In this document: in pieces, positions 5,698 to 12,946 of the stretch
How positions within the stretch are numbered: position 1 is the stretch's first letter
How the letters are laid out: every line of letters starts with the position of its first letter
Origin: Escherichia coli
Lineage (GTDB): Bacteria > Pseudomonadota > Gammaproteobacteria > Enterobacterales > Enterobacteriaceae
Reading direction: 5' to 3' (one strand)
Assembly: GCF_013315695.1 (NCBI RefSeq)
Contig: NZ_CP054353.1
Length of the DNA: 64,000 nt
Translations under genes and position numbers: made by a program
The notes under the pieces: generated by a model
Told to the model about the DNA's origin: nothing
Database searches by the model: none
The model's input: only the letters and a program-made list of their open reading frames with translations

Positions 5698-6093
<396 letters not shown>

Positions 6094-6134
6094 CACTTTT
6101 CGGTTTACTGTGGTAGAGTAACCGTGAAGACAAA

Positions 6135-6318
6135 ATTTCTCTGAGATGTTCGCAAGCGGGCCAGTCCCCTGAGCCGATATTTCATACCACAAGAATGTGG
6201 CGCTCCGCGGTTGGTGAGCATGCTCGGTCCGTCCGAGAAGCCTTAAAACTGCGACGACACATTCACCTTGAACCAAGGGTTCAAGGGTTACAGCCTGCGG
6301 CGGCATCTCGGAGATTCC
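6135..6318 (+). ncRNA. ssrS: 6S RNA
   Basis: Sequence atttctctgagatgttcgcaagcgggccagtcccctgagccgatatttcatacc...ggcatctcggagattccc matches recalled 6S RNA; lies between zapA and fau; 3-prime end approximate. Confidence 0.9.
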
Positions 6319-6392
6319 CTTCTTATCTGGCACCAGCCATGACGCAACTACCAGAACTTCCACTGACATTATCCCGACAAGAAATCCGCAAA

Positions 6393-6941
6393 ATGATTCG
6401 GCAACGTCGTCGTGCGTTAACGCCGGAACAACAGCAGGAAATGGGTCAACAAGCCGCTACCCGGATGATGACTTATCCCCCGGTGGTGATGGCACATACG
6501 GTCGCTGTATTCCTCTCTTTTGATGGCGAACTCGACACCCAGCCACTCATAGAACAACTCTGGCGCGCCGGTAAGCGCGTATATCTTCCAGTTTTGCATC
6601 CCTTTAGTGCCGGTAACTTGCTGTTCCTGAATTACCATCCGCAAAGCGAACTGGTGATGAACAGGTTGAAGATCCATGAGCCAAAACTGGATGTGCGTGA
6701 CGTGCTACCCCTTTCCCGATTAGACGTGTTGATCACACCGCTGGTCGCCTTTGATGAGTACGGCCAGCGCCTGGGAATGGGCGGTGGTTTTTATGATCGG
6801 ACCTTACAAAACTGGCAGCACTATAAAATGCAACCGGTGGGTTATGCGCATGATTGTCAGTTGGTGGAAAAACTCCCCGTTGAAGAGTGGGATATCCCTC
6901 TTCCTGCGGTGGTTACACCGTCGAAAGTCTGGGAGTGGTAA
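6393..6941 (+). CDS. fau: 5-formyltetrahydrofolate cyclo-ligase (182 aa)
   Basis: Internal start MIRQRRRALTPEQQQEMGQQAA... inside longer ORF that overlaps 6S RNA; immediately downstream of ssrS as in the known ssrS-ygfA operon. Confidence 0.85.
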   Translation: MIRQRRRALTPEQQQEMGQQAATRMMTYPPVVMAHTVAVFLSFDGELDTQPLIEQLWRAGKRVYLPVLHPFSAGNLLFLNYHPQSELVMNRLKIHEPKLDVRDVLPLSRLDVLITPLVAFDEYGQRLGMGGGFYDRTLQNWQHYKMQPVGYAHDCQLVEKLPVEEWDIPLPAVVTPSKVWEW

Positions 6942-6997
6942 GGGCGACACACCTGCATCGCCCTGATTGACATCGTTGATTCTTTAACCTAATTTAG

Positions 6998-7140
6998 TGA
7001 GTAAGGGTAAGGGAGGATGACTCCTCCCCTGAGACTGACTGTTAATAAGCTGGGAAACTTATGAGTAACAGTACAATCAGTATGATGACAAGTCGCATCA
7101 TAACCCTTCTCCTTCAAGCCCTCGCTTCGGTGAGGGCTTT
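6998..7140 (+). ncRNA. sibC: SibC antisense sRNA (antitoxin of ibsC); boundaries approximate
   Basis: Plus-strand region fully antisense to ibsC, ending in hairpin gccctcgcttcggtgagggc plus ttt at 7118-7140; locus between fau and serA. Confidence 0.45.
7042..7101 (-). CDS. ibsC: Type I toxin peptide IbsC (19 aa, hydrophobic)
   Basis: Reverse strand reads ATG ATG CGA CTT GTC ATC ATA CTG ATT GTA CTG TTA CTC ATA AGT TTC CCA GCT TAT TAA = MMRLVIILIVLLLISFPAY. Confidence 0.8.
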   Translation of the reverse strand: MMRLVIILIVLLLISFPAY

Positions 7141-7330: not shown

Positions 7331-8563
7331 TTAGTACAGCAGACGGGCGCGAATGGTACCCGGAATAGCTTTCATTGCCTGCAGCGCTTTTTCGGCAACG
7401 TCTTCGTCGGCTTCAATATCAATAACTACATAACCCATCTGGGCGGAAGTTTGCAGATATTGCGCGGCGATGTTGACGCCCTGCTCGGCAAAAATTTTGT
7501 TGAGCGCAGTTAGCACGCCCGGACGGTTTTCGTGGATGTGCATCAGACGACGCCCACCGTGCAGTGGCAGCGAGACTTCCGGGAAGTTCACCGCAGAGAG
7601 CGTTGAGCCATTGTCAGAATACTTGATCAATTTACCCGCAACTTCCAGGCCGATATTCTCCTGCGCTTCCTGAGTCGAACCGCCAATGTGTGGCGTCAGA
7701 AGGACATTGTCAAATTCACACAGCGGAGAGGTAAATGGATCGCTGTTGGTCGCCGGTTCCGTCGGGAATACGTCGATTGCCGCCCCCGCCAGATGTTTGC
7801 TCGCCAGCGCGTCACACAGTGCCGGAATATCCACCACAGTACCGCGCGAAGCATTAATCAGCAGCGAGCCGGGCTTCATTAGTGAAATCTCTTTCGCACC
7901 CATCATATTTTTGGTGGACGGATTCTCTGGCACATGTAGACTCACCACATCGCTCATATTCAGCAGGTCAGAAAGATGCTGTACCTGAGTGGCGTTGCCC
8001 AGCGGCAGTTTGTTTTCAATATCATAAAAGTAAACATACATTCCCAGCGATTCAGCCAGAATGCCCAATTGAGTACCAATATGACCATAGCCGATGATAC
8101 CCAGCTTTTTGCCGCGCGCTTCAAAAGAACCCGCCGCCAGTTTGTTCCACACGCCACGGTGCGCTTTAGCATTGGCTTCCGGCACGCCGCGCAATAGCAG
8201 CAGCAGTTCGCCAATCACCAGCTCCGCAACAGAGCGCGTATTTGAGAACGGTGCGTTAAATACCGGGATACCGCGTTTTGCCGCCGCATCCAGATCAACC
8301 TGGTTTGTTCCGATACAGAAACAGCCAATAGCGACCAGTTTTTCTGCGGCGTTGATCACGTCTTCAGTCAGATGGGTACGGGATCGCAGGCCGATGAAGT
8401 GGGCATCGCGGATGGATTCTTTTAATTGTTCATCATCCAGCGCGCCTTTGTGAAATTCGATGTTGGTGTAACCCGCTGCACGAAGGCTTTCAAGCGCCTT
8501 TTGGTGCACGCCTTCTACCAGCAGAAACTTAATCTTGTCTTTCTCCAGCGATACCTTTGCCAT
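7331..8563 (-). CDS. serA: D-3-phosphoglycerate dehydrogenase (410 aa)
   Basis: ORF product MAKVSLEKDKIKFLLVEGVHQKALESLRAAGYTNIEFHKG... full length. Confidence 0.97.
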   Translation of the reverse strand: MAKVSLEKDKIKFLLVEGVHQKALESLRAAGYTNIEFHKGALDDEQLKESIRDAHFIGLRSRTHLTEDVINAAEKLVAIGCFCIGTNQVDLDAAAKRGIPVFNAPFSNTRSVAELVIGELLLLLRGVPEANAKAHRGVWNKLAAGSFEARGKKLGIIGYGHIGTQLGILAESLGMYVYFYDIENKLPLGNATQVQHLSDLLNMSDVVSLHVPENPSTKNMMGAKEISLMKPGSLLINASRGTVVDIPALCDALASKHLAGAAIDVFPTEPATNSDPFTSPLCEFDNVLLTPHIGGSTQEAQENIGLEVAGKLIKYSDNGSTLSAVNFPEVSLPLHGGRRLMHIHENRPGVLTALNKIFAEQGVNIAAQYLQTSAQMGYVVIDIEADEDVAEKALQAMKAIPGTIRARLLY

Positions 8564-8818: not shown

Positions 8819-9478
8819 TCATTTCACAATGGTTTTGACACCGTCAGGTGTGCCAATCAGCGCAACGTCCGCGCCACGGTTAGCAAACAAGCCAACAGTC
8901 ACCACGCCAGGAATCGCATTTATGGCGTTTTCCATCGCTATCGGGTCAAGGATTTCCATGCCGTGGACGTCGAGGATCACGTTGCCGTTATCGGTCACCA
9001 CGCCCTGACGGTATTCCGGACGACCGCCCAGTTTCACCAGCTGGCGCGCCACTGCACTACGTGCCATCGGGATAACTTCTACTGGCAGCGGGAATTTGCC
9101 CAGAATATCAACCTGCTTAGAAGCGTCTGCAATACAGATAAATTTTTCCGCAACCGAAGCAATGATTTTTTCACGGGTCAGCGCCGCGCCGCCGCCTTTG
9201 ATCATTTGCATGTGGCCGTTGATTTCATCTGCGCCATCAACGTAGATGCCAAGGCTGTCGACTTCGTTGAGATCAAAAACGTGAATGCCGAGGCTTTTCA
9301 GTTTTTCAGTGGAAGCATCTGAACTGGAAACGGCCCCTTCAATCTGGCCTTTCATTGTACCGAGCGCGTCAATAAAGTGTGCGGCGGTGGAACCTGTACC
9401 TACACCAACAATGGTGCCGGGCTGAACATACTGAAGTGCCGCCCATCCTACTGCTTTTTTCAATTCATCCTGCGTCAT
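8819..9478 (-). CDS. rpiA: Ribose-5-phosphate isomerase A (219 aa)
   Basis: Internal start [35 protein letters not shown]... Confidence 0.95.
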
Positions 9479-9515
9479 GATCGTTTCGCCTGTGGTATGA
9501 AATTTCACACGCATT

Positions 9516-9655: not shown

Positions 9656-10552
9656 TCAGACCCCGCTGACAAGTCGCGTGGTTAACTCATCCATAAAATA
9701 TCGTGCTATGGCGGGCATCCCCTTTTGCCCGGCAAATAAAGCATACAACGGTCTGGGTATGCCGCTCCACGGTGCAAACAGGCGCACCAGTTCACCGTTC
9801 GCAAGCCCCTGTTTACAGGCAAATTGAGGCAATAACGCCACGCCATTCCCACCAAGCACTGCCTGCAACATGACACGAATGTTATTTGTCTGCAAACGCG
9901 CCTCAGGCTGCAACGTAATCTCCTGTTCGCCATTAATTAACTGCCACTGGCTCCCGCCATTGTTTGTCAGGCGAAGGATCCCGTCGACGCGGTTAAGATC
10001 GTCAATGGCCTTCACCTGCGGATGGCGGGCCAGCCACTGCGAACTGGCAACTAAAATATCGGCCTGAGTATGTAATTTTTTATAATGCAGCGTCGAGTCC
10101 GCAAGCGCGCCGGAAGCCGTAACCAGCGCAATATCAATGCCTTCAGCGACCATATCCACCGGGCGATTAATTGCCAGCATTTGCACCTTCGCCAGGGGCC
10201 AGCGGGCGATAAATTCACTGACGAACTCACCAAACCATGTTTCAGCCATAAATACCGGCGCGCTGACGCGCAGCATTCCCTGTGGGCTTTCCTGGGCGGC
10301 CATCACCACCGCTCTGGCCCGTTCCCCCTGAGCCACCAGCGCCCGACACTCGACAGCAAACTGTTCCCCTGCCGCCGTCAGGGCCAGACGCCGCGTAGTT
10401 CGCTGAATAAGCCTCACGCCGAGGCGCTCTTCCAGCGCTGCCATTCGACGGCTTAATACCGATTTCGACACACCCGCACGCAGCGCCGCCTGGCTGTAGC
10501 TGCCTTCATCGGCAATCAGGGCAAAGTAGTAGTAATCATTCCAGTCGATCAT
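9656..10552 (-). CDS. LysR-family transcriptional regulator (298 aa), divergent from the downstream reductase operon
   Basis: ORF product with N-terminal HTH (YSQAALRAGVSKSVLSRRMAALEERLGVRLIQRTTR) and LysR substrate-binding region; K-12 has only a LysR-type pseudogene remnant here as I recall. Confidence 0.85.
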   Translation of the reverse strand: MIDWNDYYYFALIADEGSYSQAALRAGVSKSVLSRRMAALEERLGVRLIQRTTRRLALTAAGEQFAVECRALVAQGERARAVVMAAQESPQGMLRVSAPVFMAETWFGEFVSEFIARWPLAKVQMLAINRPVDMVAEGIDIALVTASGALADSTLHYKKLHTQADILVASSQWLARHPQVKAIDDLNRVDGILRLTNNGGSQWQLINGEQEITLQPEARLQTNNIRVMLQAVLGGNGVALLPQFACKQGLANGELVRLFAPWSGIPRPLYALFAGQKGMPAIARYFMDELTTRLVSGV

Positions 10553-10652
10553 GATTGTTCTATTTTCACAACAATGAAGTTCAATTATGACTATTTAATC
10601 ACCATGTCAACAACAGTTAAACTTCTCTCATCGCAGAAATGAGAGCAAACCC

Positions 10653-11282
10653 ATGAAAATTCTCCATATCGACAGCAGTCCAATGCTTAAGCATTCAAGT
10701 TCGCGGAAATTAAGCCAGGCGCTGGTAGAAGCGCTTTGCCAACGTTTCGCGCAAGCCACAATTATTCATCGCGACGTTGGCCTGACGCCCCCACCCCATT
10801 TGCGTGAAGAAACCTTTCTGGCGCTTTGCGGTAAAGCGGAATGCGAGAACGCACAAATTCAGCAGGAGGTGAATGATATCCACGCTGCTATTGATGAACT
10901 GGCATCGTGCGATGTGCTCATTATTGGCGCGCCGATGATTAATCACAGCGTTTCATCTGGCCTCAAAACCTGGATAGATCAGGTCTGTCAGGCTGGTTTA
11001 ACGTTTCGTTTTACTTCCGCTGGTGCCGTTGGGTTACTGACGGATAAACCGACGTTTATTGTCTCGACGCGCGGCGGTATCTATTGCGATGAAGCACATC
11101 TGGCGCTGGATCATCAGGAAAGTTATCTGCAAGCCACACTGAAATTAATGGGCATTACCAATACACATATTTTGCGCGCGGAAGGCGTCGACAAAACCCA
11201 ACCGGGACGCGAACTCGCCGAGCAAAATGCATTAGCGCAAACCCCTGATCTTATTACACAAGTATTTAATCATTATCTTTAA
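10653..11282 (+). CDS. FMN-dependent NADH-azoreductase (AzoR / ACP phosphodiesterase family) homologue (209 aa)
   Basis: MKILHIDSSP...RDVGL...VLIIGAPMINHSVSSGLKTWIDQVCQAGLTFRFT...IVSTRGG pattern parallels AzoR. Confidence 0.8.
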   Translation: MKILHIDSSPMLKHSSSRKLSQALVEALCQRFAQATIIHRDVGLTPPPHLREETFLALCGKAECENAQIQQEVNDIHAAIDELASCDVLIIGAPMINHSVSSGLKTWIDQVCQAGLTFRFTSAGAVGLLTDKPTFIVSTRGGIYCDEAHLALDHQESYLQATLKLMGITNTHILRAEGVDKTQPGRELAEQNALAQTPDLITQVFNHYL

Positions 11283-11298
11283 TATAAAAGGAGTTATT

Positions 11299-11559
11299 AT
11301 GTCTATTAAGCAAAATTTATTTGCCGCATTATTTCTTTGCACTCTCACAGGACACGCATTTGCCGCAACCGAGATACACAAACCGGACAATAATCTTGAA
11401 CAGTTATCAAAAGTGAGCATGTCCACACACAATAGCAATCCAGCGGGCGTTGAAAGCCAAATCAAAGAGAAAGCGGAAGAGTTACAAGCCAGCAATTACT
11501 ACATCAGTTCTTTCTCCGGTAAAAATTATATCCACGCCACTGTAATTTTCTATAAATAG
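11299..11559 (+). CDS. Small secreted DUF1471 (YhcN/BhsA-like) family protein (86 aa)
   Basis: Signal peptide MSIKQNLFAALFLCTLTGHAFA and C-terminal ...NYIHATVIFYK typical of BhsA/YjfY-type stress proteins; RBS aaggag upstream. Confidence 0.7.
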   Translation: MSIKQNLFAALFLCTLTGHAFAATEIHKPDNNLEQLSKVSMSTHNSNPAGVESQIKEKAEELQASNYYISSFSGKNYIHATVIFYK

Positions 11560-11620
11560 CCCCTCTGTTTAACGGAAGCATGGAATTATTCCATGCTCCT
11601 CTGCCAAAATGAAATAAAAA

Positions 11621-12946
11621 ATGAAAAAAGCTAATCTTACAGGTACGTTGGTTTGCTTTGTCGCATGCCTTATTTTTTTGTCGTCCGGTGATATTTTTCG
11701 TGAAAAGCCAATCGCGCTAATATGGTTCCTTCGACAAAACATACTCTTTTTTACGGGAACTCTTGCGTGGTGTCTGATGACGCTGACGATGTGTTTATCG
11801 TTGCGTTCATCATGGCTTAACAAAGTGCTGGGCGGTCTGGATAAAGCATGGCGATTACATAAGTGGGCAGGAATATGCGCCATAGCGTTTGCTTTCGCCC
11901 ACTGGCTGGATGAAAAATTACCCCAGTTATTCGTCGCCTTTGGCTGGCTTACTCACCCTGGTAAAATCGTTGATATTAACCTGACGCCAGTACAAGAAAA
12001 TTGGCTTCATGCGGGACTGTTAGCGGGTGAATGCGCAATGTTTATTATTATAGCGATGGTTTGCGTATCTCTTAGCAAAAGAGTTCCCTATCATTTATTT
12101 CATCTTGTTCACCGTTTGTTCCCCGTCTTTTATCTGGCAATTGCCTTTCATGTGTTTACTGCTTTGTTTAAATCATACTGGTGGGAAACTCCTGCTGCGT
12201 ATTTATTAATTTTAATTACTATTCCGGGCGTCTTTGCGGCTTTCATTTCGCTGCTGAAATTAAACGGTAGTAAAAACAAGCATCAGGCTACCATTAAAAA
12301 CATTGTTAACCATCCAGGACAAATTACCGAAGTCACCCTGGAGCTGGAACATGCCATCGACTATTCTCCGGGGCAGTTTGCATTCTTAACGTTCGCACAC
12401 AGTAAAGAATCTCACCCTTTTACTATCGCTTCATACACCAAAGAGAAGAACACGTTGCGCTTTGCCATCAAAAATTTAGGGGATTATACCTCTACCCTTG
12501 CATCCTCGATAAAAATCGGCCAGTCCGCCTTCGTTGAAGGGCCATGGGGAAAGTTTGATTTTACTCTCCCTTGCTCCCACCAGGTCTGGATAGCAGGAGG
12601 CATCGGCATTACCCCCTTTATCGCCCAGCTTGAGTATCGTAAACATCATGGCGCGTCCTCTGTTCCTGTGGATCTCTGGTATTGCGTCAGCCGAAGCGAG
12701 GATGCCTGGTATGTTGATAAACTGACCTCACTTTGTGCCCAGGCCAGGGTCACACTGCATCTGCTTGATGCGCATAAAGGTGAGCGCCTACAGGCGCACT
12801 ATCTTACTGATAAAATAGCAAATAAAGGTGACACCCATTTCTGGTTTTGCGGCCCACAGAGTTTTGCCAAAGCGCTCAGCAAAGGGTTATATGAAAATGG
12901 GATTGCCAGCCAAAACTTCCATTACGACCGTTTTTGTATGCGTTAA
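11621..12946 (+). CDS. Ferric-reductase-domain membrane flavocytochrome (NOX/FRE-like; TM domain plus FAD- and NAD-binding domains), 441 aa
   Basis: His-containing TM helices ([26 protein letters not shown]), HPFTIAS FAD motif and GGIGITP NAD(P) motif. Confidence 0.8.

What the first reader, a model, noticed from the sequence alone, without database searches (positions are those of the whole stretch)
10624..10646. Hairpin that would sequester the Shine-Dalgarno region of the AzoR-like gene
Inverted repeat tctctcat-cgcagaa-atgagaga ends 6 nt before the ATG at 10653, and the only purine-rich SD-like element (gagag) is in its 3-prime arm. It is also positioned where a LysR-type T-N11-A site might sit.
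Basis: inference. Interest (0 to 1): 0.3.

Follow-up and report, generated by a model that had tools for sequence, protein, structure and literature searches.

The report
Ribosome-site-masking stem straddling a promoter
A small 7-bp inverted repeat in front of an uncharacterised E. coli azoreductase-like gene is real and has been kept by compensatory mutations in related bacteria, so it probably can hide the ribosome-binding site, but its left arm lies on top of the gene's predicted promoter and start of transcription, so it may only silence messages that begin too far upstream.

Summary
The inverted repeat exists but is 7 bp, not 8: CTCTCAT (10625-10631), loop of 7, ATGAGAG (10639-10645). Base 10646 is C. 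As RNA it folds at -6.9 kcal/mol and covers the only, weak, SD (GAGAG). Alone it is within chance: such repeats occur 1.5 per kb in this window.

Orthologues change that. In 8 of 11 lineages the segment next to a conserved hexamer is complementary to that lineage's own SD. Four pairs changed on both sides in one lineage. A swap test gives p = 8e-5 to 0.002. Complementarity is therefore maintained, with variable sequence and loop length. That fits RNA pairing, not a protein site.

The 5' arm, however, lies in the discriminator of the only conserved -10-like hexamer (TAnnCT, 10618-10623). The conserved A seven bases later (10630) is the predicted start. It places the LysR dyad (10554-10575) at -65.5.

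My best reading (0.4) is start-site-conditional masking. Transcripts from the regulated start lack the 5' arm and are open. Longer transcripts are masked.

Rivals:
- an ordinary 5'-UTR hairpin (0.3);
- no function (0.2);
- a LysR or protein site (under 0.05), which the data reject.

No transcription start has been mapped.

The parts
10625..10631 (+). 5' arm CTCTCAT (anti-SD-like). It lies at -5..+2 of the predicted transcription start.
   Evidence: Searches give the arm. Covariation with the 3' arm is shown.
10632..10638 (+). Loop CGCAGAA (7 nt).
   Evidence: In orthologues the loop varies in sequence and in length, from 7 to about 25 nt.
10639..10645 (+). 3' arm ATGAGAG, holding the weak Shine-Dalgarno GAGAG (10641-10645). 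It ends 7 nt before the ATG.
   Evidence: The anti-SD duplex is -2.7 kcal/mol. T10640C (ACGAGAG) occurs in 15 of 246 island-bearing E. coli genomes.
10653..11282 (+). AzoR-like gene (209 aa, Flavodoxin_2 / FMN-dependent NADH-azoreductase family), first gene of a three-gene operon.
10618..10623 (+). Predicted -10 hexamer TAAACT (family pattern T-A-n-n-C-T).
   Evidence: T 11/11, A 11/11, C 10/11 and T 11/11 across 11 lineages. It is the only TAnnnT shared by all lineages in the 100 nt upstream of the ATG. This is an inference, not a mapped element.
10630..10630 (+). Predicted transcription start (A, preceded by a pyrimidine).
   Evidence: The 7th base after the hexamer is A in 10 of 11 lineages, while the six bases before it vary. 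It puts the LysR dyad centre at -65.5. This is an inference.
10594..10599 (+). Weak -35-like TTTAAT inside the conserved box CTATTTAATC, 18 bp upstream of the hexamer.
   Evidence: The conserved box is seen. Its assignment as -35 is an inference.
10554..10575 (.). LysR-type recognition dyad ATTGTT-N10-AACAAT, 2 bp from the LysR start codon.
   Evidence: I1. It is conserved in all orthologues (ATCGTTGC-N6-GCAACGAT in Rahnella).
10610..10617 (.). Second LysR-type half-site ACAACAGT, 7 of 8 identical to the right half of the dyad and 42 bp downstream of it. It abuts the -10 hexamer (ABS'-like).
   Evidence: AACnnT follows the dyad's right half in each lineage. Its position agrees with the LTTR layout described in PMC4730206.
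9656..10552 (-). Divergent LysR-family regulator gene (298 aa).

Best explanation
The repeat encodes a real RNA-level stem. A pyrimidine-rich anti-SD segment (CUCUCAU) pairs with the weak Shine-Dalgarno (AUGAGAG) of the AzoR-like gene, and this pairing has been kept by compensatory change.

The anti-SD segment is built into the core of the gene's own LysR-dependent promoter, from the last bases of the -10 hexamer to +2. Transcripts that start at the regulated site (about A10630) therefore lack the 5' arm and have an open ribosome-binding site. Any transcript that starts further upstream carries both arms and is translationally masked. Such transcripts could come from read-through across the antisense of the LysR gene, or from sloppy or activator-independent initiation.

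The effect would be to tie translation of the operon to correct, LysR-controlled initiation.

Shown here:
- the stem exists;
- it covaries;
- it covers the SD;
- the -10-like hexamer and the +1-like A are conserved.

Inferred:
- the start site;
- the existence of longer transcripts;
- any effect on translation.
For: (1) The stem is 7 bp and folds at -6.9 kcal/mol.

(2) It covaries.
- RNAalifold finds 7 pairs, 4 of them changed on both sides.
- 92.9% of cells are paired. 0 of 500 shuffles reach this, and slid registers give 26-58%.
- The 5' arm of L087 has a perfect 7/7 complement downstream in 0 of 20000 shuffles.

(3) It recurs across lineages. The segment -9..+2 is more complementary to its own SD region than to the SD regions of other lineages. 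The cognate sum is -78.5 against -45.3 +/- 8.2 for permutations (p = 8e-5). Without the hexamer bases, p = 0.0016. The chimera folding test gives p = 0.0016.

(4) The 3' arm always covers the lineage's own SD: GAGAG, UGGA, GGGGA, AGGA or AAGG.

(5) Loop length varies from 7 to about 25 nt and arm sequences differ. This excludes a fixed-geometry protein site.

(6) The promoter evidence places the arm upstream of the start.
- T-A-n-n-C-T is invariant, followed by six variable bases and then A in 10 of 11 lineages.
- It is the only shared TAnnnT.
- The dyad centre falls at -65.5 and the second half-site abuts the -10. This matches the layout of RBS near -65, ABS' near -10 and ABS'' near -35 (PMC4730206).

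(7) In every lineage that has a stem, the 5' arm falls between -9 and +2 and never further downstream. This holds even where the leader is 10 nt longer.

(8) The computed cost of opening -15..+3 is lower in transcripts that start at the predicted +1 than in longer ones:
- window 4.3 vs 6.8 kcal/mol;
- L087 2.0 vs 9.1;
- L011 3.3 vs 11.0;
- L007 4.0 vs 12.7.

(9) In L085, L086, L087 and L170 a + strand gene converges on the LysR gene, so read-through is conceivable.
Against: - No transcription start is mapped. The whole argument about the 5' arm rests on a conserved -10-like hexamer.
- No consensus + strand promoter was found upstream between 8500 and 10700. In E. coli the upstream genes (the LysR gene, rpiA, serA) are all on the other strand, so a source of longer transcripts is not evident.
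- In E. coli the computed gain from losing the 5' arm is only about 2.5 kcal/mol. The SD can also pair with CUCCAU in codons 4-5.
- Three lineages (L085, L005/L084, Hafnia L088/L089/L169) have no significant stem.
- 15 of 246 E. coli genomes and two Escherichia clades carry an uncompensated A.C mismatch.
- Only three independent lineages share the exact register, so the covariation sample is small.
- Part of the Rahnella-type complementarity (CCU with AGG) could follow simply from a conserved -10 ending in CCT and an AGGA SD.
Confidence: 0.4

Rival explanations
1. Ordinary leader hairpin. Transcription starts upstream of 10625, so both arms are in the normal mRNA. The stem then constitutively lowers translation, or stabilises the 5' end if the start is at about 10624 and the stem is 5'-terminal.
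For: The covariation and SD coverage are the same as for the best explanation. SD-sequestering leader stems are common and experimentally established, for example in IS200 tnpA (PMC4513863). An alternative -10-like hexamer AACAGT/AACAAT (10612-10617, with A at position 2 and T at position 6) would start transcription at about 10624. The base there is a purine in 8 of 11 lineages. In Rahnella, the L009 to L010 change from G-C to A-U falls in a register that begins exactly at the first base after the hexamer and contains G.U pairs.
Against: AACnnT is accounted for as a LysR half-site, because it copies the right half of the dyad in each lineage. This reading leaves the invariant T-A-n-n-C-T and the conserved A seven bases later unexplained. 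In L087, L085, L005 and L088 no other TAnnnT exists in the 100 nt upstream. In Rahnella-type and Ewingella loci the 5' arm includes 2-3 bases of the hexamer. Even a start at hexamer+1 would not transcribe those bases. A start at 10624 puts the dyad at -59.5 and a LysR half-site on the -10.
Confidence: 0.3
2. No function. The repeat is a by-product: a pyrimidine-rich discriminator facing a purine-rich SD, possibly kept symmetric by template-switch (quasipalindrome) mutation, without selection on pairing.
For: Perfect repeats of at least 7 bp are frequent, with 98 in 64 kb. The stem is short and weak. Three lineages lack it. An uncompensated mismatch segregates in E. coli and its sister clades. 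The predicted start would exclude the 5' arm from the mRNA.
Against: Cognate versus non-cognate tests control for composition and clustering and still give p from 8e-5 to 0.002. Four both-sided changes in one lineage keep a perfect 7-bp stem. The 3' arm coincides with the SD in every lineage that has a stem. A neutral process does not predict this.
Confidence: 0.2
3. DNA-level operator. The dyad is a binding site for the LysR regulator (T-N11-A box) or for another dimeric protein at the start site.
For: The dyad has symmetry and lies in a LysR-controlled divergent region. A T-N11-A spacing can be found (T10618...A10630, T10626...A10638), but such spacings are expected by chance.
Against: Symmetry-related T/A pairs are N7, N13 and N17, not N11. 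There is no similarity to the family half-site AACAAT. Arm sequences change and arm spacing varies from 7 to about 25 nt between orthologues, while the true LysR dyad stays constant. The centre lies near +5 of the predicted start, outside the -65, -35 and -10 layout (PMC4730206).
Confidence: 0.04

Closest known systems
Fold-back inhibition of read-through transcripts at insertion-sequence ends (IS10/Tn10; recalled from Davis, Simons and Kleckner 1985, not re-read here)
   Same: A segment upstream of the native transcription start is complementary to the translation-initiation region. Only transcripts that begin too far upstream can form the stem and are silenced. Transcripts from the element's own promoter are open.
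   Different: Here the context is a chromosomal LysR-regulated redox operon, not a transposase at a mobile-element end. The anti-SD segment overlaps the -10, the discriminator and +1 themselves. Neither the start site nor longer transcripts have been demonstrated.
SD-sequestering leader stem-loops, e.g. IS200 tnpA 5' UTR (PMC4513863)
   Same: A short cis stem pairs the Shine-Dalgarno with an upstream anti-SD and is expected to lower 30S binding. No ligand or trans factor is needed.
   Different: In IS200 both arms lie well inside a mapped 5' UTR and the SD is near-consensus. Here the SD is weak (-2.7 kcal/mol), the stem is only 7 bp, and the 5' arm is predicted to lie mostly upstream of +1.
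Canonical LysR-type divergent promoter (RBS near -65, ABS' near -10, ABS'' near -35; PMC4730206)
   Same: The surrounding region fits this layout. The dyad ATTGTT-N10-AACAAT is next to the regulator's start codon, a second half-site lies 42 bp downstream abutting a weak -10, and the -35 is poor.
   Different: The finding itself (10625-10645) is not one of these protein sites. It lies downstream of them and varies where they are constant.
5'-terminal stabilising stem-loops of mRNAs (e.g. the ompA leader; own knowledge)
   Same: If transcription began at about 10624, the stem would sit 0-1 nt from the 5' end, the arrangement known to protect against 5'-end-dependent decay.
   Different: This requires a start site that the conserved promoter pattern does not favour. 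The stem here also covers the SD, which those stabilisers do not.

Membership tests
SD-sequestering leader stem-loop | One arm of a stable local stem contains the Shine-Dalgarno | tested here: met
   The minimum-energy stem is 10625-31 with 10639-45 at -6.9 kcal/mol, and GAGAG lies in the 3' arm.
SD-sequestering leader stem-loop | Pairing maintained in orthologues by compensatory change | tested here: met
   4 of 7 pairs are changed on both sides, 92.9% of cells are paired, and 0 of 500 shuffles reach this. The swap tests give p = 8e-5 to 0.002. Only three lineages share the exact register.
SD-sequestering leader stem-loop | Both arms lie inside the mRNA (start site upstream of the 5' arm) | tested here: inconclusive
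   No mapped start exists. The conserved TAnnCT hexamer and the A seven bases later predict +1 at 10630, inside the 5' arm. No published 5'-end data were found.
SD-sequestering leader stem-loop | The stem lowers translation, and disruption and compensation behave as expected | not testable with these tools
   This needs reporter fusions or toeprinting.
Fold-back inhibition of read-through transcripts (IS10 type) | The anti-RBS segment lies upstream of the native transcription start | tested here: inconclusive
   The 5' arms fall at -9..+2 of the predicted start in all eight lineages that have a stem. The start is predicted only.
Fold-back inhibition of read-through transcripts (IS10 type) | Native-start transcripts have a more open initiation region than longer ones | tested here: met
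   The computed opening cost of -15..+3 is 4.3 vs 6.8 kcal/mol (window), 2.0 vs 9.1 (L087), 3.3 vs 11.0 (L011) and 4.0 vs 12.7 (L007). This is a computation, not a measurement.
Fold-back inhibition of read-through transcripts (IS10 type) | Transcripts entering from upstream actually occur | not testable with these tools
   No consensus + strand promoter lies between 8500 and 10700. Convergent + strand genes sit upstream of the LysR gene in L085, L086, L087 and L170.
Fold-back inhibition of read-through transcripts (IS10 type) | Located at the end of a mobile element, protecting a transposase | tested here: not met
   The context is a chromosomal four-gene island between rpiA and argP, and the gene is an AzoR-family oxidoreductase.
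LysR-type (T-N11-A) binding site | Dyad with T-N11-A spacing | tested here: not met
   The symmetry-related T/A pairs of the repeat are T-N7-A, T-N13-A and T-N17-A. The N11 pair is C...G.
LysR-type (T-N11-A) binding site | Resembles the cognate regulator's recognition half-site and is conserved with it | tested here: not met
   The family half-site is AACAAT/AACGAT, present at 10554-75 and 10610-17. The arms of the finding are unrelated to it and change between orthologues.
LysR-type (T-N11-A) binding site | Centred near -65, -35 or -10 of the regulated promoter | tested here: not met
   The centre at 10635 is about +5/+6 of the predicted start. The layout is taken from PMC4730206.
Intrinsic terminator | G+C-rich stem followed by a U tract | tested here: not met
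   The scans found no terminator-like site at 10400-10800 on either strand. The stem has 3 G-C pairs of 7 and no T run follows on either strand.
Any curated RNA family (Rfam 15) | Match to a covariance model | tested here: not met
   Only two chance-level hits (E of 3.7 or more), neither at the finding.

The most novel reading that the evidence does not exclude
An anti-Shine-Dalgarno segment is embedded in the -10, discriminator and +1 core of a LysR-activated chromosomal promoter. The choice of transcription start then decides whether the message can be translated. Only transcripts initiated at the activator-dependent start escape masking, which gives the operon a second, translational lock against leaky or read-through expression. 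Its last gene encodes a protein with the ferric-reductase, FAD-binding and NAD-binding domains of NADPH oxidases.
Probability: 0.4. Interest if true: 0.6.

Novelty: new member of a known kind. Interest (0 to 1): 0.4.

Why it matters
If the start-site-conditional reading is right, the insulation trick known from insertion sequences is also used by an ordinary regulated operon. In that trick, the native transcript is open and any longer transcript is folded shut. Here it would be written into the promoter core itself.

That would matter in three ways:
- for how tightly LysR-type systems can be kept off;
- for interpreting transcript-level data of such operons, because mRNA abundance would not equal translatable mRNA;
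- for promoter and leader design.

If instead the stem is an ordinary leader hairpin, it is a routine tuning element of an uncharacterised accessory operon found in about 4.5% of complete E. coli genomes. Either way, the case shows that a hairpin call in a short divergent region cannot be interpreted without locating the promoter.

Tried and rejected
- **Rfam search of 10400-10900:** nothing relevant.
- **Terminator reading:** no terminator-like site on either strand.
- **LysR or T-N11-A site and generic protein operator:** rejected on spacing, sequence, variability and position.
- **Metagenome scan with the conserved promoter pattern** CTATTTAATC-N11-AAC-NN-TTA-NNN-T-V: 69 loci, of which only one (L127, the same lineage as L082) encodes a relative. 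The pattern excluded T after the hexamer, so E. coli-type sequences were left out on purpose.
- **Plasmid collection searched with the protein:** only relatives of 43% identity or less, too distant for leader comparison.
- **Consensus promoter scans:** no site in the intergenic region or upstream on the + strand. This is as expected for an activator-dependent promoter, and it leaves no identified source of longer transcripts.
- **Alternative -10 candidates:** TATTTAAT box, TATTTT within the dyad, and AACAGT. The first two are not conserved as TAnnnT. The third is better explained as a LysR half-site.
- **Strand of action:** the E. coli A.C mismatch would be a G.U pair in a minus-sense RNA, while L086 and L008 have G.U pairs only in the plus sense. 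No consistent strand signal emerged, so this was not pursued.
- **Literature search for the island or a mapped start** (yqfE, rpiA, argP): nothing useful.
- **MAFFT alignment of the whole leader (A1):** it mis-registered the 3' arm of L087. The hairpin-only alignment A2 was used instead.

Full report
**Context**

The window is an E. coli chromosome segment (serA 7331-8563 -, rpiA 8819-9514 -, argP after 12946). Between rpiA and argP lies a four-gene accessory island:
- a LysR-family regulator (9656-10552, -);
- divergently, an AzoR-family flavoprotein (10653-11282);
- a YdgH/BhsA-like small protein (11299-11559);
- a membrane protein with ferric-reductase, FAD-binding and NAD-binding domains (11621-12946).

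The island is present in 246 of 5426 complete E. coli genomes. The rest keep only a fragment of the LysR gene. The finding sits in the 100-bp divergent intergenic region.

**The observation**

The repeat is real but has 7 pairs, not 8: CTCTCAT (10625-10631), a loop of 7, then ATGAGAG (10639-10645).

As RNA the stem is the minimum-energy fold at -6.9 kcal/mol. GAGAG in the 3' arm is the only SD-like element and is weak, at -2.7 kcal/mol against the 16S tail.

By itself the repeat is not beyond chance. Perfect repeats of at least 7 bp with loops of 3-12 occur 98 times in the window, against 47 +/- 11 expected. Local shuffles reach the same energy in 2.5-2.7% of trials.

**Comparative evidence**

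I collected the leader from:
- seven further E. coli alleles;
- three other Escherichia lineages;
- ten further lineages at 45-76% protein identity, found in a species-representative genome scan, in public assemblies and in one metagenome contig.

Within E. coli the 30-nt core has only two alleles. 231 genomes carry ATGAGAG. 15 carry ACGAGAG, an uncompensated A.C mismatch that shortens the stem to 5 bp.

Across lineages the picture is sharper.
- L082 (76% protein identity) has ATCTCA...TGAGAT.
- L087 (62%) has AATCCAT-N9-ATGGATT. This is a perfect 7-bp stem in the same register, with four pairs changed on both sides.

RNAalifold and the pair counts give 7 pairs, 4 of them with compensatory change. 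92.9% of cells are paired, 0 of 500 shuffles reach this, and slid registers give 26-58%.

Other lineages have different but analogous stems whose 3' arm covers their own SD:
- CCCC/GGGG in L168 and L086;
- CCUGU/ACAGG with lineage-specific extensions in Rahnella-type loci;
- CUGCGCC/GGC-A-GCAG in Ewingella.

A swap test controls for composition. It pairs each lineage's 5' segment with every lineage's SD region. Cognate pairs are much more complementary than non-cognate ones:
- p = 8e-5 with the last three hexamer bases included;
- p = 0.0016 without them;
- p = 0.0016 by chimera folding.

Three lineages show no stem. These are L085, the Hafnia loci, and the Pseudocitrobacter-type loci, in which the LysR gene itself is missing.

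Loop length varies from 7 to about 25 nt and the arm sequences differ, while the SD is always the target. The complementarity therefore behaves like RNA pairing, not like a protein-binding dyad.

**The complication: the promoter**

Anchoring all lineages on the block just upstream of the stem shows this pattern:
- an invariant T-A-n-n-C-T (TAAACT at 10618-10623; T 11/11, A 11/11, C 10/11, T 11/11);
- six variable bases;
- then A in 10 of 11 lineages, usually preceded by a pyrimidine and followed by T.

This hexamer is the only TAnnnT shared by all lineages in the 100 nt upstream of the ATG. In four lineages it is the only one present.

Reading it as the -10 puts the start at about A10630. The LysR dyad ATTGTT-N10-AACAAT (10554-10575) is then centred at -65.5. 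A second half-site, ACAACAGT (10610-10617), copies the right half of the dyad 42 bp downstream and abuts the -10.

This is the layout described for LysR-type regulators: RBS near -65, ABS' near -10 and ABS'' near -35 (PMC4730206).

On this reading the 5' arm (10625-10631) occupies -5..+2, so the regulated transcript would not contain it. In every lineage that has a stem, the 5' arm falls between -9 and +2.

The conserved promoter pattern and the covarying stem are both strong, and they conflict if the stem is assumed to sit in the main mRNA.

**Resolution**

The reading that accommodates both is start-site-conditional masking. Transcripts from the regulated start are open, and any longer transcript carries the anti-SD arm and is folded shut.

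Computed opening costs of the initiation region agree. They are 2.0-4.3 kcal/mol for +1 transcripts against 6.5-12.7 kcal/mol for longer ones in most lineages. In E. coli the difference is only about 2.5 kcal/mol.

This works like the fold-back inhibition that protects IS10 transposase from outside transcription (my recollection, not re-read). It uses the same physical principle as the IS200 SD-sequestering stem (PMC4513863).

Its main weakness is that no source of longer + strand transcripts is evident in E. coli. In four other lineages a convergent + strand gene lies upstream of the LysR gene.

I give this reading 0.4. The other readings are:
- **Ordinary leader hairpin (0.3).** It needs a start at or upstream of 10624, perhaps from AACAGT used as a -10. 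It leaves TAnnCT-N6-A unexplained.
- **No function (0.2).** It has to discount the swap tests and the four compensatory pairs.
- **LysR T-N11-A site or protein operator (under 0.05).** It is rejected on spacing, sequence, variability and position.

**Verdict**

The element is a new member of a known kind. No transcription start has been mapped, and a single 5'-end mapping experiment would decide between the two leading readings.

Noticed in passing
window 9656-12946: This is a four-gene accessory island between rpiA and argP: a LysR regulator, an AzoR-like flavoprotein, a YdgH/BhsA-like protein and a membrane protein with ferric-reductase, FAD-binding and NAD-binding domains. It is present in only 246 of 5426 complete E. 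coli genomes. The others keep just a roughly 210-bp remnant of the LysR gene.
   Followed up: partly
window 11621-12946 (+): This 441-aa protein has a ferric-reductase transmembrane domain plus FAD- and NAD-binding domains, the domain set of NADPH oxidases. It is co-oriented with the AzoR-like gene. In orthologous loci the same gene follows the AzoR-like gene (L086, L087, L168).
   Followed up: no
window 10639-10656 (+): The ATG in the 3' arm opens a five-codon mini-ORF (ATG AGA GCA AAC CCA TGA). Its stop overlaps the start codon of the gene (ATGA). An ATG at this place is kept in L082, L087 and L005 but is ACG in 15 E. coli genomes. It has no SD of its own.
   Followed up: no
window 10682-10695 (+): A perfect 14-bp palindrome, AATGCTTAAGCATT, lies inside codons 10-15 of the AzoR-like gene. 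It forms a small hairpin in every fold of the leader plus coding start.
   Followed up: no
L005 2360-2500; L084 1360-1500; L167 1-66: In the Pseudocitrobacter-type lineage (70% protein identity) the LysR gene is absent, the -10-like hexamer is closer to consensus (TAAAAT), and the anti-SD arm is gone. The SD (AATGAGAG), the dyad-like box and the half-site remain.
   Followed up: partly
window 10584-10589 (-): CATAAT on the minus strand is a plausible -10 for the LysR gene. It would start the LysR mRNA at the edge of the dyad, the usual arrangement for autorepression. Orthologues keep comparable hexamers (GATATT, GAAAAT, AAAAAT) at this place (inference only).
   Followed up: no
window 10660-10667 (+): UUCUCCAU in codons 3-5 is also complementary to the SD region (AUGAGAG). 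In transcripts that lack the 5' arm the SD is therefore still partly paired in the E. coli sequence, with an opening cost of 4.3 kcal/mol.
   Followed up: partly
window 5764-7101: zapA, the 6S RNA gene ssrS (about 6135-6318), the 5-formyltetrahydrofolate cyclo-ligase gene and the type I toxin gene ibsC (about 7042-7101, -) lie upstream of serA. Positions were transferred from the annotation of an identical RefSeq record.
   Followed up: no
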